This document shows, in pieces, positions 3,001 to 15,000 of a stretch of 64,000 nt of DNA; position 1 is the stretch's first letter; every line of letters starts with the position of its first letter. The position numbers were made by a program. Source of the DNA: Carcharhinus amblyrhynchos (Eukaryota); the NCBI GenBank assembly GCA_965287045.1, contig OZ336890.1, forward strand, positions 30,132,001-30,196,000. The letters are read 5' to 3'.

Positions 3001-6000
3001 ACAACAATTGGACTGAATGTTAAAAAAAGGTTGCTCCGCAATGTTGTTCCTAGTGTTATGATGACATCAGATGATAATTGTTCAGTAGTTCCAATCCCAG
3101 AGGGATTTCTGGACCACAACCCTTTTCTTCTGTATTCTAAAAAATGGGAAGAAACCGTGCTAATCTCAGCTGCAAAGAAATCCAACAACCCTTTTGGATT
3201 TAAAAAATTAAAACTAAATGATTTATTAGCAAGAATAAAATAAAACTTAAGCACATTCATAGTCACAAAGTTAAAAATCATATAAAACATTCCCCAAAAG
3301 ACCCGTAAGTAAATACCTTCCAGGCAGAACTCCCTTATACATTTTTAACTAGTCCAGGTATATTACCAAAGGCAGAACAGGTGCCACCTTCGTATAGCAC
3401 ATAACCTCACAACCTTACCTCCACTCTGCTGTGGAAATCCAAGACACTTGAAAAACGAGACTGCTTTGCAACCTAAGACTTCTCTAGCTTGACTCAGCTT
3501 GATGGCTGATTCGAACTTTGTATCTTCTGCCAAGGCCCGAAAATGGCCGCAATCGGGACCATGCCCGAAATGGGCATGATGGCCAGTTAAATGCATTTGC
3601 CTGTGTTTCACTTATTGGGCTGCACGTCCAACTTTATCAGCACTTCCCCCTTTACCACTGCGTTTGCCCAACCAGATTCAGCCCAAGCCAGACGTGCTCC
3701 ATAAAAGTTCGATTCAGGTGTCTAGCGTCCGACGGCTCTCTGCTTGAGGTCGGTGGTGGGGGGGGGGGGGGGGGGGTGGGGGGAGAGGAAGTCTGCTGCC
3801 ACTCTGCTTAAGGTCGATTGGGGGGTAGGGGGGGTGGGTGCGGGAGGAGGGGATGGGCCTGCGATCGGTCCAGATGGCACAGAGGTGGGGAGGATAAGGA
3901 GGCCAGTAATGTTGGGGGGTTGGAGCAATGGGAGCCAGGGGGAGGCATTATCCAGCCTGGGAGCACTGTGGTAGGGGAGCCACATTCTATCTTTTTTTTC
4001 TGCGCGTGCGCAGTTGGAAGGGGCTGATCAGAGCTGCAGAATTTTGTGTGCGTTAAGCCCCACCCACAGGCTTCTACAGCACAATTTTTTCAGGCACAGT
4101 GCTTATGGGGGTGCCTGAGAACAGGCCTAAAAGTCGGATCTGAATCACTCCCAGTTTCAAGTCTGTCCAGCACTTAGAATGAAAATGGTAAGTGGCAATT
4201 TAGGATAGTCAATCCACCTAACCTTTGGACTGTGGAAGGTAACCGGAGCACCTGGAGGAAACCCATGCAGACACAGGGAGAACGTACAAACTCCACACGG
4301 ACAGACAGTCACACAAGGCCGGAATTGAACCCTGGCATTGTGAGGCAACAGTGCTAACGACTATGTCAGTGCGCTGCCCCTAAATAGGGATATGCTGAAT
4401 GTAGCTGTGGAATTTTGCAACCGTTGAGTGAATCACCACACTTATTTTTGAGATTGGGACTCTACCACAATTCCAAGAAATGTGAGCTGGCAAATAGCAA
4501 GAACTGCAGCTTCTATCAACTCCAGCTGCAGTGATAGCCTGATTCTAACCAATTAGACCTCTTATTTCTTCAGTGTTCATACATCTTAAAAGGATCCAGG
4601 TCAGTTGGGGAAGCTGGAGCCAAAGCATAGAGCTCTTTATTGAGTTTATTCCCTTATTTGGTGTCACAACTTTATCATCTCCAATATTCCAGCGATCCCT
4701 TATTTATTTGTGCTTGAAAACAATTACAACCCAACTATGTAATCAACATGACAGGAAACAAATTTATCAATGTAATGGGCATGATATCAACCACACAGAT
4801 TGCATTAATAATTTTCATGATTAAATGTGAGTATACATGTTCAAAACAAGAGCCTGTTAATGCTTTGGTACAATTTTTCATGAAGCCTAGCAGATTAGCA
4901 GAAAATTTATTCCTAAAATCAATATCGTCCAGGTCTTCCTCATTCAGCATTCCCTGTTGGAAATAAAGTTCAATAATGAAATGTAAAGTTACTACTACTC
5001 ATTGCAAATTATAAAATATATTCTGAGAGAGTTGCATACCGATTAAGTCTGATGTTGCTGATTTGGATCATGATCTCATGAGCGCTTTAATGAAAATGAA
5101 AATATTAGTTTTCGGGCAGCTTTTATGTTGGCAATGGTTACATTCATGCATAACATAATACATTGAACACTTTCCTGCCATTCTTTTTTCTGGTCATTAC
5201 ACTAAAGCACAAATAAGACATTAGTTAGTAGTGCAACAATCTAAAAAGTTACAGCCTTACTTAGCATTGCTTTATATGTGGTTGTCAATATATTAAAATT
5301 GTTAGCTTAATGTTCTAACTCTCATTTGGAAAATAAAATTGTTGGTCAATTTTAAAAATCAGTTCCCTGGAGTCCCATGAGCATAGCAAGCTGGAGCGCT
5401 CAATGATCTGATTTGACATCGAGTACAAAAGAATAAAGATCAAGGGGGCGATTCTCCTAGCCCACTGCACTGCTCTAGCAATGTAATGGGCCAGGGGACA
5501 TCAGAAGGCTGTTTCATGACCCCCTGAGCCTCTGTGCGTTTCAGGGGTCAAAATCTTTAGTGCCATCAGCTCTGCACCTGAAATTGGCATGGAGCTGATT
5601 TCAATAGTTAAATTATGAATAGCATATCGTTAAAGGGCCCGGACTGAAGTCTCTGGGCCCACTAGTCTATGGTATGGCTCGCTCCAACAGGGTTTACTAC
5701 TACTCCCCATGGCCAGAGATCCTGCTGGAGGAATCAGCGGCCATGGAGGCCTCCTCCTCAGTAGGTCAGAGTGAGGGGAGTGGCCTCTGGGCAGTGCCAG
5801 CATGGCCCCCTGGCAGTGTCCAACAGGCAAACTGTCAATGGCCGAGGGGCACATTGGCACTGCCCATTGGGCATCGGGCAGTGCCAAGGGGGCAGGGCCT
5901 ATTGGGGGACAGGGCTCATAGGGGGTGATCGGTGGGGATATCCCACTGCCACTCTGCACTGGGATTGTTGGCAGAAGGAGGTAAGTTGGTGATCGGGGCT

Positions 6001-12000: not shown

Positions 12001-15000
12001 AGCAGGAACTCCCCATTCATTGTGGAGCTCCACACATCCTAGTCCTCCAACATACTCATGGAGTTGGGCACAGTCTTTCATGAGTCATTGTTCATCCCCT
12101 TCCAAAGGTCTCCTCATGAACCCTACTTTTTACAAGGGGTCTTTTAAAAAGGTGATTGCCAAAGATCCTCTTCAAGCTCTTTATAACAAACTATGCCCCT
12201 GCACCCTCCCCCATGGCCCCTCAATCCCCCAATGTCAAATCATGGCATCCTACCCATCCTGATGGTCCGATGGACCCTCATACACCCATGTCAACTTTTG
12301 TCTCTTCACTACCTCTCAAGGCCCCTGGTGTCCCCAGTGCCAAGCTATGGTACTGCAATGCTTATTGACCTATTAATAAACTGTATAGTACAGCAATGAG
12401 CCCTATAATTAAAGTAGGATGTGTAAAATAAGCTTCAAAAAATTCATTCATTCATTACTTTCTACTCTGTTAAGGAAGTCACATTATGACAAGGGAATAA
12501 AGATATCAATCAGTAAGACCCTTTAATTTATCAATAACAGAAATCATAAACTCTTCAAACTGCTTCGCCTTCTGTAAAAAGAGTGAAATTGACCATATAG
12601 ATCAGAGTGCTGGACCTATCAGTGAAGCAATGTTTTCTCTGGGGTGCAGCTATTTAAGAAGTGTAATAGGGCTTCGTCAGTTCGCAGCAAATGTTCATGA
12701 TGTATGCTTGTCTAAGAGCCCAGGCATCCATTACTCTGTAAAGATCCATTATTCTTGAATGATGCAGTGAACACAAGTGAATTCTGTGTAGAAATATTGG
12801 GATAGAATCATATAATCATAGAGCCCTACAGTGCAGAAAGAGGCCCTTCGGCCTATCATGTCTGCACTGAACACAATCTCACCCAAGCCCTACCCACATA
12901 TATTACACCCACTAATCCCTTTAACCTACACATCTCTAGGTACTAAGGGACAATTTCTTATCATGGCCAATCAACCTAACCCGCACATCTTTGGACTGTG
13001 GGAGGAAACCGGAGTACCCGGAGGAAACCCACGCAGACACAAGGAGAACATGCAATCTCCACACAGACGGTAACCTGAGCCAGGAATTGAACCCAGGACC
13101 CTGGAGCTATGAAGCAGCAGTGCTAACCACTGTGCTACCGTGCCGTCCACAGTAGATAGTACATCTAAATTTTCATCCATGAGATTGGCAATGGGATTGG
13201 GAAAACTTATGGCTCAGCAAGCCTGTCTCTGGAGAAAGTGGCCATAAGACAAGATCTTCATTGGTGGGCGGGTATGGGCTGCAGTTGAGCCAGCTGACCC
13301 AGGAGAAGCACTTTCTGGAAGCAGAATGTTTAAAAGGCCTCTCCAGTACCTCAGCCAAGGTGGTTGTTTGTCATTTGTGAATCCTGAAAGTAAATTATGA
13401 CATGATTTCAACCACTGGCACCTTAAAACCAAGCTCAATCACTTTGTCACCCAATGTCAACTCATACATACTTTCAGAAGGTAGTATTGGAATTAACCAG
13501 ATACAGGGATTCTGTCTGATTTTATGCCATTATAGCCAATTTCAGACATACATGGCAAGCAATATTAAATCAACACAAGTATTTATCTATCCTTAGGAAC
13601 ATGAGACCATACTGACACAGAAAAGACCACTATTACAAATATTGATGTAACTCTATTAGTTTTCATCTTCAATGCCTGATTTGAAATATTTCAATCTCTT
13701 GTACTGTCCTCGTGACAAAAAGGGATTTTCTTTACCTACCTTTAACCAAAAGTTCTATATCTTTTGTTTTAAAACCACCGGATCCACAGTCTAGGAAAAG
13801 CTGATATTTTCCTTCATCCAAAATTTCCGTTTTGTTAATTATCAATATTACATTTCCTGGATTTATGAGACACCTTCTTGTTTCCAGGGCATTTGTTCCA
13901 TTTTCGCCTGTACATGGGATTTTAGTACCATTCACGTGAGTCCAACTACCGTTACATTCTTTCTGCGTTTTTGTCTTGTACTCACAAGCCAAAACAGTGC
14001 GCTTGTGATGGATCCCTGTGACTGAATTGTTACACTGGACAGTTACAAATGCATCTGAAATAAATATGATAATCTATTAGCACCTATCCTTTAAGGTATA
14101 GAAGCGCGAAATAGAAACATTGAATATGATACAAGTTATATACTGGTATTACTCACCACCAGCTTCAATGGTCACAAAGAAGGAAATCACAATAAAACAA
14201 AGAATTTTTGGAAAATGGTAAGTTGCCATTCTTTTCCAGGGCTTTCAAGAATCTGTTTAAAATATTGGAATAACTCATTACTGGCACATAATAAGTTTTG
14301 GGGACATTTGTTTTGCACTCAAATGCTATACTTATTTGGCACAATTAATTGAGACTGGGTGCTCAGGTTCCTGAGTCTTGTGTTCAAAAACAGATCAAGA
14401 CTTACATGGTTTTCTGCACATCCTACTTGTGATCTGAACACTGTGGTCTCCACTTTTGCTTATGCTGCAATCAGAACAGCAGCCTGAAACATGGACCACA
14501 GATTCCAGATAATAGCTCAGGATTTTTTATAACTGGCTAAATTGGTAAGTATGACATTGGTTTAACTACCCAACTAGGAATCAAGCTAGTGTTAAATCAA
14601 ATTGTTGGTGCAATGCTTATATCTGCAGTGTTTGAATGCGTGTCCTTCGACTTAGGGGGAAAAGATGGTAATATTTGAGCGAAGTGAATAAATAAAAATT
14701 GCAGTTCACAAAAGTGTGAATAATTTGACTCCAAGTCCTGATGAATGGGATAGTACTGAGGTAAAGAATCTGGGGGCGATCTTACCGCTTGTCACGATGG
14801 TCAATCAGCAGGGCGAGCCAATAAGATTGCAAGAGAGGCGAAGAAAATGGGAAGGGCGCGAGGCTGATGTAAATATTTCAATCTGCATTTCAATGATGTT
14901 AGTGAGCCCAGGACAGAATTGTTCAGGCTCACTTGCCTTAACAGCCACGGAGTTGTAGGTCCTCCCTGGCAAGGATCACCAGAAATGAGGACCAGTTGTG

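What the first reader, a model, noticed from the sequence alone, without database searches (positions are those of the whole stretch)
4940..14252. Divergent PD-L1/PD-L2-like B7 gene scattered among repeats
Seen: signal, IgV, IgC, TM, 45-nt and terminal micro-exons with matching splice sites, of which the ORF track shows only pieces. Known: this exon plan (ATG just after an acceptor, V, C, TM, short tail exon, tiny last exon) is that of CD274. The C domain mixes PD-L2-like GYPLAE/ANSS/NYSC and PD-L1-like EDKLYNITS motifs. Inference: a lineage-specific cartilaginous-fish PD-L paralogue, relevant because PD-L2 is usually regarded as a tetrapod duplicate.
Basis: partly seen in the sequence, partly recalled or inferred. 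Interest (0 to 1): 0.75.

Follow-up and report, generated by a model that had tools for sequence, protein, structure and literature searches.

The report
Divergent shark-type B7/PD-L-like ligand gene
A real-looking gene for a cell-surface immune ligand of the B7 family sits here among repeats; one domain resembles PD-L2/PD-L1/B7-H3, the other is too unusual to place, so it is not shown to be a second PD-L gene.

Summary
The minus strand of 4940-14252 carries four convincing exons. They are a signal exon, a 315-nt V-like exon, a 234-nt IgC exon and a 156-nt transmembrane exon, all in intron phase 1 with AG/GT borders.

- **IgC exon:** it is clearly B7-type. Pfam C2-set_3 scores E 1.1e-5. The best single-domain match among solved structures is mouse PD-L2 at 27 bits, ahead of PD-L1 at 19 and CD276 at 16 per domain.
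- **V exon:** it matches no Pfam family and no Ig chain in PDB. It lacks the canonical F-strand cysteine. Only language-model features call it V-set.
- **Signs of function:** the V exon stays open for 113 codons and is enriched in N-glycosylation sequons (P 0.0026).
- **Tail exons:** The 45-nt exon has an in-phase stop.
- **Neighbours:** the window holds no second B7 exon and no PLGRKT, RIC1 or JAK2 marker.

My verdict is a probably functional, divergent B7-family gene of the PD-L/CD276/ICOSL subgroup. Paralogue status is unproven. Exons were searched one by one and the joined model was left out, so no phylogeny was possible.

The parts
14157..14252 (-). Signal-peptide exon. The acceptor cag lies just before 14252. 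The ATG is at 14229-14227, followed by 24 codons plus 1 base, then donor gtgagt (phase 1).
   Evidence: Sequence read and flanks printed. The hydrophobic core has a 19-residue mean Kyte-Doolittle value of 1.83. No Pfam hit was expected or found.
13740..14054 (-). V-like exon of 315 nt, phase 1 to 1, lying 102 nt downstream of the signal exon. It has a B-strand Cys and a Trp 14 residues later, and 5 N-x-S/T sequons. The canonical F-strand Cys is absent; the sequence there reads YQLFLDC.
   Evidence: Pfam gave 0 families at E<=10. PDB gave no Ig chain. Atlas features point to V-set clusters at 0.95. There are 5 sequons against 1.26 in shuffles, P 0.0026.
11522..11755 (-). IgC exon of 234 nt, phase 1 to 1, B7-type C2-set. 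It contains GYPLAE and an NYS sequon directly before the F-strand Cys.
   Evidence: - Pfam C2-set_3 scores 1.1e-5 at 25.8 bits, below the cut-off of 27.
- PDB: CD276 1.1e-7 from two stretches of 16 bits, mouse PD-L2 8.1e-6 with a best stretch of 27.2 bits, PD-L1 0.011-0.025.
- Homology does not extend upstream of the exon.
- Atlas top hit is a BTN2A1-like C2-set_3 cluster at 0.93.
8323..8478 (-). Stalk plus transmembrane exon of 156 nt, phase 1 to 1. The hydrophobic core is followed by basic residues.
   Evidence: The mean Kyte-Doolittle value is 2.64 over 19 residues. Such exon candidates are rare in the window.
5040..5084 (-). Candidate 45-nt tail exon (aaag|..|gtatgc). In phase 1 it stops after five codons, with TGA at 5070-5068. 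If it is used, the protein ends here.
   Evidence: There is no homology or transcript support.
4940..4953 (-). Candidate terminal micro-exon after acceptor cag. In phase 1 it reads three codons and then TGA at 4942-4940. It is coding only if the 5084..5040 exon is skipped or replaced.
   Evidence: There is no homology or transcript support.
6262..6306 (-). Alternative open 45-nt phase-1 exon candidate (aagag|..|gtcagt). It is speculative.
   Evidence: Enumeration and translation.
12789..13148 (.). SINE-like repeat copy in the V-C intron. Further copies of intra-window repeats lie at 10994-11261, 9840-9928, 7176-7503, 4189-4381 and 3938-4087. None overlaps an exon.
   Evidence: Self-blastn of the window. 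25.4% of the window is repeated within the window.

Best explanation
This is a real and probably functional gene for a type I membrane glycoprotein of the B7 family, belonging to the PD-L1/PD-L2/CD276/ICOSL subgroup.

**Shown**
- The exon order is signal, V-like, IgC, TM, all in phase 1.
- The IgC domain is homologous to B7-type C domains.
- The V exon is kept open and is rich in glycosylation sequons.
- The cytoplasmic tail is very short. Eight residues follow the hydrophobic core within the TM exon, and either candidate ending adds 4-6 more.

**Inferred**
- The protein sits on the cell surface and acts as a ligand, since its tail is too short to signal much. It would present its membrane-distal V-like domain to a CD28-family receptor on lymphocytes.
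- The V domain has lost the canonical disulfide and shows no detectable PD-L similarity. It therefore probably does not bind PD-1 in the classical way.
- It may serve one of the extra CD28-family receptors described in cartilaginous fish.

Whether it descends from a PD-L duplication remains open. I put that at about one in three.
For: - **Exon borders and phases:**
- **IgC homology:** Pfam C2-set_3 1.1e-5. PDB gives CD276 1.1e-7, mouse PD-L2 8.1e-6 with a 27.2-bit single stretch, PD-L1 about 0.012 and BTN1A1 0.078. No CD80, CD86, ICOSL or B7-H6 chain appears among the 30 sequences at E<=10.
- **Subgroup:** a 2026 survey groups PD-L1, PD-L2, CD276 and ICOS-L in one cluster (PMC13262535, passages seen). 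The C-exon hit pattern fits that cluster.
- **V exon:** Atlas features are V-set-like at 0.95, and all ten best hits that carry a family agree. It is open over 113 codons; only 45 of 6327 stop-free stretches in the window are that long. It holds 5 sequons against 1.26 expected, P 0.0026.
- **TM exon:** TM-like phase-1/1 exon candidates fall in only 3 position bins on this strand, two of them adjoining at this exon.
- **Possible receptors:** extra CD28-family receptors exist in Chondrichthyes (PMC11599192, abstract and passages).
Against: - The V exon has 0 Pfam families at E<=10 and no Ig hit in PDB. It lacks the F-strand cysteine that all well-known B7 V domains keep; that comparison is established knowledge and was not tested here.
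- The IgC match stays below Pfam's gathering score (25.8 against 27 bits).
- The A strand of the C domain is not detectable.
- The in-phase acceptor is the second of two AGs, and use of the first would give a frameshift.
- Both single-sequence folds were uninformative, with pLDDT 47.7 and 34.5.
- There is no transcript, orthologue or neighbour evidence.
Confidence: 0.5

Rival explanations
1. One reading: a true second PD-L gene, a paralogue of the species' PD-L1 that arose by duplication in cartilaginous fish or earlier.
For: - The best single-domain hit of the C exon is mouse PD-L2, at 27.2 bits against 19 for PD-L1 and 16 for CD276.
- Mapped through that alignment (chain numbering +18), the exon has L150, Y174 and the N189-x-S191 sequon. 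Kondo et al. give these as PD-L2 IgC marks.
- The V exon starts with A-F directly after the signal exon. PD-L1 F19 contacts PD-1, but placing this F at that position is my own reading, not a tool alignment.
Against: - The score gaps of 8-11 bits on 77 residues are too small to assign a lineage.
- G172 and the aromatic residue at 166 are not kept; the exon has K and I there.
- L150/G172 are also in ordinary shark/ray PD-L1.
- The C exon is sequon-rich, so an N-x-S there can be chance (3 observed against 1.43 expected, P 0.15).
- The V exon has no PD-L similarity.
- Kondo et al. found a second PD-L gene only in tetrapods.
- No PD-L1 gene or 9p24-type neighbour is in the window.
Confidence: 0.3
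2. A decaying or recently dead B7 pseudogene whose exons are still open by luck.
For: - The V domain is unrecognisable to Pfam and PDB and lacks the canonical cysteine.
- The C domain lacks a detectable A strand, and its best-looking acceptor is out of phase.
- There is an in-phase stop in the 45-nt exon.
- The gene lies in repeat-rich DNA beside a ferritin retrocopy.
Against: - All four core exons are open with intact phase-matched AG/GT borders.
- A V exon that had drifted far enough to lose all profile similarity would be expected to have picked up stops within 113 codons.
- The sequon excess in the V exon (P 0.0026) points to continued selection as a glycoprotein.
Confidence: 0.2
3. It is simply the species' single canonical PD-L1 (CD274) orthologue, already known from database annotation.
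For: - The C domain has the GYPLAE-type L150 that shark/ray PD-L1 is reported to have.
- The exon layout fits.
Against: - Kondo et al. describe PD-L1 as well conserved from fish to human, with F19 and D122 kept.
- A conserved V domain should then hit the many PD-L1 chains in PDB, but the V exon hits none at E<=10. This argument is an inference, because I could not see any shark PD-L1 sequence. That alignment is in a closed supplement.
Confidence: 0.07
4. A butyrophilin-like or other non-PD-L member of the B7/BTN superfamily, for example one with a B30.2 exon beyond the window edge.
For: - The top Pfam family is the butyrophilin-type C2-set_3.
- The top Atlas cluster is BTN2A1-like at 0.93.
- BTN1A1 is among the PDB hits at 0.078.
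Against: - No PRY/SPRY match appears in any scanned ORF of 50 codons or more in the 8.3 kb downstream of the TM exon.
- PD-L2, PD-L1 and CD276 score above BTN1A1.
Confidence: 0.12

Closest known systems
PD-L2 (PDCD1LG2), mouse, PDB 3BP5/3RNQ
   Same: - Best single-domain match of the IgC exon, at 27.2 bits and i-E 4e-5 over 61 residues.
- Shares GYPLAE (L150), Y174 and an N-x-S directly before the F-strand Cys (N189/S191).
- Same V-C-TM layout.
   Different: - G172 and the aromatic residue at 166 are not kept.
- The V exon has no detectable similarity and lacks the canonical disulfide.
- The A strand of the C domain is not detectable.
PD-L1 (CD274), including the single 'PD-L1' of fish and sharks (Kondo et al. 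2025, PMC12151841)
   Same: - The IgC exon hits many PD-L1 chains at E 0.011-0.025.
- Shark/ray PD-L1 is reported to carry the same L150-type motif.
- The general exon layout is the same.
   Different: - PD-L1 V domains are reported as well conserved, whereas this V exon matches none.
- I could not compare with shark PD-L1 itself.
CD276 (B7-H3)
   Same: Lowest whole-chain E-value, 1.1e-7, because both IgC domains of the 4-Ig form match at about 16 bits each.
   Different: - It is weaker per domain than PD-L2.
- CD276 is described as the most conserved of this cluster across gnathostomes, yet this V exon does not hit the CD276 V domains in PDB. It is therefore not the CD276 orthologue.
- There are only two Ig exons here.
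Butyrophilins (BTN1A1, BTN2A1-like)
   Same: C2-set_3-type IgC and a weak BTN1A1 hit.
   Different: No B30.2/PRY-SPRY exon was found downstream within the window.

Membership tests
B7 family (PD-L1/PD-L2/CD276/ICOSL subgroup) | Signal, IgV, IgC and TM each on its own exon, joined by phase-1 introns, with a short cytoplasmic tail | tested here: met
   Exon borders and phases were read. The tail exons are uncertain.
B7 family (PD-L1/PD-L2/CD276/ICOSL subgroup) | Membrane-proximal IgC domain homologous to B7-type C domains | tested here: met
   PDB phmmer gives CD276 1.1e-7, PD-L2 8.1e-6 and PD-L1 about 0.012. Pfam C2-set_3 scores 1.1e-5 but is 1.2 bits under the gathering score.
B7 family (PD-L1/PD-L2/CD276/ICOSL subgroup) | Membrane-distal IgV domain with a V-set profile match and the canonical B-F disulfide | tested here: not met
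   Pfam gave 0 families at E<=10 and PDB gave no Ig chain. The F-strand Cys position holds Leu. Only Atlas features say V-set, at 0.95.
PD-1 ligands (PD-L1/PD-L2) | V-domain residues that contact PD-1: F19 main chain and D122 side chain (PMC12151841) | tested here: inconclusive
   No tool alignment to a PD-L V domain could be obtained. By eye, an A-F pair opens the V exon, but no Asp can be placed at the D122 position.
PD-1 ligands (PD-L1/PD-L2) | PD-L2 IgC marks L150, G172 and N189-x-S191 (PMC12151841) | tested here: inconclusive
   Through the alignment to 3BP5 chain B, L150 is present, G172 is absent (K) and N189/S191 are present. L150/G172 are also in shark PD-L1.
PD-1 ligands (PD-L1/PD-L2) | Position in the conserved PD-L gene neighbourhood; the neighbours PLGRKT, RIC1 and JAK2 are named from recall | tested here: inconclusive
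   Of the 535 ORFs of 50 codons or more, 412 were scanned. They gave only Ferritin, RVT_1, DDE_Tnp_4 and this IgC. Short exons would be missed, and the window may simply be too small.
PD-1 ligands (PD-L1/PD-L2) | Groups with PD-Ls in a B7-family phylogeny | not testable with these tools
No B7 sequences could be fetched.
PD-1 ligands (PD-L1/PD-L2) | Binds PD-1 | not testable with these tools
   This needs an experiment. No PD-1 sequence of the source species was available.
Butyrophilins | Cytoplasmic B30.2 (PRY-SPRY) exon after the TM exon | tested here: not met
   No PRY/SPRY family appears among the scanned ORFs in 1-8322. An exon beyond the window edge is not excluded.

The most novel reading that the evidence does not exclude
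A cartilaginous fish carries a second gene of the PD-L lineage beside its ordinary PD-L1. Its IgC domain already shows PD-L2-type marks (L150, and the N189-x-S191 sequon thought to be a tetrapod PD-L2 novelty). Its V domain has given up the canonical disulfide and the PD-1 contact residues, which would suggest a switch to another CD28-family receptor. That would push PD-L duplication, or the origin of PD-L2-type features, back before tetrapods.
Probability: 0.15. Interest if true: 0.7.

Novelty: new member of a known kind. Interest (0 to 1): 0.4.

Why it matters
Current literature holds that fish and sharks have one PD-L gene and that PD-L2 arose in tetrapods (PMC12151841). It also reports that cartilaginous fish have more CD28-family receptors than humans, with ligands unknown (PMC11599192).

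A divergent B7 gene with a PD-L-like C domain and an odd V domain is a candidate ligand for one of those orphan receptors. It is also a test case for when PD-L2-type features arose.

As it stands it is a plausible but unplaced family member. It is useful to comparative immunologists and not surprising in kind.

Tried and rejected
- **Single-sequence AlphaFold2.** The V exon gave mean pLDDT 47.7. The C region extended to 11831 gave 34.5. Both are too poor to use. Foldseek of the V model against PDB gave 0 matches at E<=0.001 among 122 at E<=10.
- **Longer C exon.** I tested a start at the in-phase acceptor before 11833 and rejected it. The similarity to PD-L2 begins only at residue 44 of the open frame and nothing upstream aligns.
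- **Paralogous exons.** tblastn of each exon peptide on its own against the window found none. The best non-self E-values were 0.87 (V), 0.075 over 9 residues (C), 0.29 (TM) and 0.23 (signal).
- **Synteny by Pfam.**
  - The 262 non-repeat ORFs of 50 codons or more gave Ferritin, this IgC and DDE_Tnp_4, plus weak single hits: COG4_C 0.0018, VasL 0.0013 and FeoB_associated 0.0013.
  - Of the 273 repeat or low-complexity ORFs, the 150 longest gave RVT_1 four times and two weak hits.
  - The remaining 123 shorter repeat ORFs, and all ORFs under 50 codons, were not scanned.
- **Rfam at gathering score.** It gave 0 matches in the window.
- **Enumeration of phase-1 tail exons**. It found no candidate with support.
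- **Literature.** Four full-text searches found no paper describing a second PD-L-like gene in cartilaginous fish.

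
Full report
**Scope and limits.** The spliced model was examined exon by exon. The remaining collections hold bacteria, archaea, phages, plasmids and E. coli, and cannot inform on a vertebrate gene. No relatives could therefore be fetched. The window contains no N, and I do not take it for human. That it comes from a cartilaginous fish is not shown by any search. It rests on my recollection that the tRNA-derived SINE seen in the introns is typical of sharks and rays.

**1. Is the observation there?** Yes for the core of it. The gene lies on the minus strand.
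- A script printed the flanks of each exon.
  - Signal exon 14252..14157: acceptor cag, ATG at 14229, donor gtgagt.
  - V-like exon 14054..13740: 315 nt, cag|..|gtaggt.
  - IgC exon 11755..11522: 234 nt, ..ccaag|..|gtaagt.
  - TM exon 8478..8323: 156 nt, tttcag|..|gtacaa.
- Every junction is in phase 1, as is usual for Ig-superfamily domain exons. Introns are 102, 1984 and 3043 nt.
- The quoted C-domain motifs are all present.
- Chance is an unlikely explanation.
  - Only 62 of 6327 stop-free stretches in the six frames reach 104 codons, and 14 reach the 169 codons of the frame holding the C exon.
  - Phase-1/1 AG..GT exon candidates with a TM-like core fall in only three position bins on this strand, two of them adjoining at the TM exon itself.
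  - Among 412 window ORFs scanned with Pfam, only the C exon hit immunoglobulin families.
- Repeats fill the introns but touch no exon.

Three details of the observation do not hold or are weaker than stated.
- **The 45-nt exon.** Its true limits are 5084..5040 (aaag|..|gtatgc). Read in phase 1, it reaches a TGA at 5070-5068 after five codons. The chain TM, 45-nt exon, terminal micro-exon does not read through. Either the protein ends in the 45-nt exon, or that exon is skipped and the 4953 exon supplies three codons and the stop at 4942-4940. Another open 45-nt candidate (6306..6262) turned up in the enumeration but has nothing to recommend it. In every version the cytoplasmic tail is very short.
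- **The C-exon acceptor.** The in-phase acceptor is the second AG of a pair five bases apart. The first, better-looking cag before 11760 would shift the frame into a stop.
- **The 'IgV'.** It is not recognisable as such by standard searches (see section 2).

**2. What is it?**
- **The IgC exon is a B7-type constant domain.**
  - Pfam gives C2-set_3 (butyrophilin/B7-type Ig-C) at E 1.1e-5 and 25.8 bits, just under the 27-bit gathering score. Generic Ig families follow, then CD80-like C2-set_2 at 0.05.
  - Against all PDB chains, 30 distinct sequences match at E<=10.
    - CD276 scores 1.1e-7, as the sum of two 16-bit stretches on the 4-Ig form.
    - Mouse PD-L2 (3BP5, 3RNQ) scores 8.1e-6, with the best single stretch of all at 27.2 bits.
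    - Many PD-L1 chains score 0.011-0.025 at 19 bits.
    - 2-Ig CD276 scores 0.013-0.062 and BTN1A1 0.078.
    - The rest are neural adhesion molecules.
  - No CD80, CD86, ICOSL or B7-H6 chain appears.
  - This is the pattern expected for the PD-L1/PD-L2/CD276/ICOS-L cluster defined in a 2026 survey of IgSF proteins (PMC13262535, passages seen).
  - The language-model look-alike search gives a BTN2A1-like C2-set_3 cluster at 0.93.
- **The V-like exon is another matter.**
  - Pfam returns no family at E<=10.
  - PDB returns a single irrelevant chain at E 0.75.
  - The look-alike search does point to V-set clusters. The top score is 0.95, and all ten best hits that carry a family agree. The tool states that shuffled proteins reach 0.95 about once in 100.
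  - By eye the exon has the B-strand Cys, a Trp 14 residues later, and a G-N..I.I....D.G.Y stretch of the kind seen before the F strand. The position of the canonical F-strand Cys holds Leu, with a Cys four residues further on (YQLFLDC).
  - Six cysteines and five N-x-S/T sequons are present. The sequon count is 5 against 1.26 in 20,000 shuffles, P 0.0026.
  - The C exon has 3 sequons against 1.43 expected (P 0.15), which is not significant.
- **Structure prediction gave nothing.** Without relatives only single-sequence folds were possible, and both failed, with pLDDT 47.7 and 34.5. The Foldseek search of the V model found nothing below E 0.001.
- **The C domain looks short at its N-terminus.** Only 13 residues precede its first Cys. 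Extending the query upstream through the open frame did not extend the similarity to PD-L2, which starts at residue 44 of that frame. The A strand is either absent or unrecognisable, and I rejected the alternative longer exon from 11833.

**3. PD-L or not?** Kondo et al. 2025 (PMC12151841; outline, sections 12 and 22, and passages read) report the following.
- Fish, including sharks, have one PD-L gene, called PD-L1, and a second PD-L gene was found only in tetrapods.
- PD-L1 is well conserved, with F19 and D122 kept.
- The only residues that consistently separate PD-L2 from PD-L1 are L150, G172 and an N-x-S at 189 in the IgC domain.
- L150/G172 are also present in shark and ray PD-L1.
- The N189 sequon seems new in PD-L2.

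I mapped these positions onto the window's C exon using the printed alignment to 3BP5 chain B. Chain numbering plus 18 reproduces all four published positions.

| Position | Present here? |
|---|---|
| L150 | yes (GYPLAE) |
| Aromatic at 166 | no (Ile) |
| G172 | no (Lys) |
| Y174 | yes |
| N189-x-S191 | yes (NYS before the Cys) |

This is a mixed picture. It is suggestive, but L150 is not diagnostic in sharks, and a sequon in an Asn-rich domain can arise by chance.

On the V side no tool alignment to any PD-L exists. A phenylalanine directly follows the signal exon, but I cannot place an Asp at the D122 position.

A well-conserved PD-L1 V domain should have hit the many PD-L1 chains in PDB, so I infer that this is not the species' ordinary PD-L1. 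The same argument applies against the CD276 orthologue, which is described as the most conserved of the cluster.

**4. Surroundings.**
- No paralogous V, C, TM or signal exon exists elsewhere in the window.
- Pfam scans of 262 non-repeat ORFs of 50 codons or more, and of the 150 longest of the 273 repeat or low-complexity ORFs, found only four things. These were an intronless ferritin ORF, reverse-transcriptase fragments, one DDE_Tnp_4 fragment and the C exon itself.
- There is no PRY/SPRY exon downstream, which argues against a butyrophilin. There is also no trace of PLGRKT, RIC1 or JAK2.
- Short exons would escape this scan, and 64 kb may be too little in a large genome. Synteny is therefore untested rather than negative.

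**5. How it most likely works.**
- Shown: the exon order and phases, B7-type IgC homology, an open and sequon-rich V-like exon, a strong TM segment and a very short tail.
- Inferred: a heavily glycosylated type I surface protein that acts as a ligand and presents its distal domain to a receptor of the CD28 family.
- Because the distal domain has lost the canonical disulfide and any detectable PD-L likeness, classical PD-1 binding is doubtful.
- Cartilaginous fish have several CD28-family receptors without known ligands (PMC11599192, abstract and passages). These are natural candidates.
- The main rival is a decaying pseudogene. I rate it at 0.2, because an exon that had drifted beyond profile recognition would be expected to have acquired stops, and the sequon excess suggests continued selection.

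**6. Verdict.**
It is a B7-family gene with a PD-L-like C domain, but it is not shown to be a PD-L paralogue, and the exon plan is not specific to CD274.
- I class it as a new, divergent member of a known kind, with interest 0.4.
- The boldest reading still allowed is a pre-tetrapod second PD-L-lineage gene with PD-L2-type IgC marks and a re-targeted V domain. I put it at about 0.15, and it would merit about 0.7 if true.
- Four full-text searches found no description of such a gene. The closed supplement of PMC12151841, which holds the PD-L alignment and tree, might.

Noticed in passing
window 26116-26685 (+): An intronless 190-codon open frame encodes a complete ferritin domain (Pfam Ferritin 1.2e-33, profile positions 2-141 of 142). 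It looks like a processed ferritin retrocopy that is still open, about 12 kb upstream of the B7-like gene on the other strand.
   Followed up: partly
window 47740-49266 (+); also 586-1509 (+), 32955-34441 (+), 51577-52707 (-): These are long LINE reverse-transcriptase fragments. Pfam RVT_1 hit 4 of the 150 repeat ORFs scanned, best 1.4e-33 for the 509-codon frame. Several copies share near-identical peptide stretches, and 25.4% of the window is repeated within the window.
   Followed up: partly
window 30153-64000 (one ORF, not located): One ORF in the second half of the window matches the DDE_Tnp_4 (Harbinger/PIF-type) transposase at 3.9e-6. The bulk scan does not say which ORF. The candidates I tried, including 57182-57565, did not match.
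   Followed up: partly
window 59935-60902; 16979-17427; 18976-19599: There are three large tandem arrays. One is a 35-bp unit x 27.7 copies at 88% match. One is a 16-bp unit x 28.6 copies. One is a degenerate CA-rich array of 20-22 bp units, which produces long His/Thr-rich open frames.
   Followed up: no
window 5633-6178 (-): A GC-rich, proline-rich 182-codon open frame lies inside the last intron or tail region of the gene. It has no Pfam match and no copy elsewhere in the window. Its origin is unknown.
   Followed up: partly
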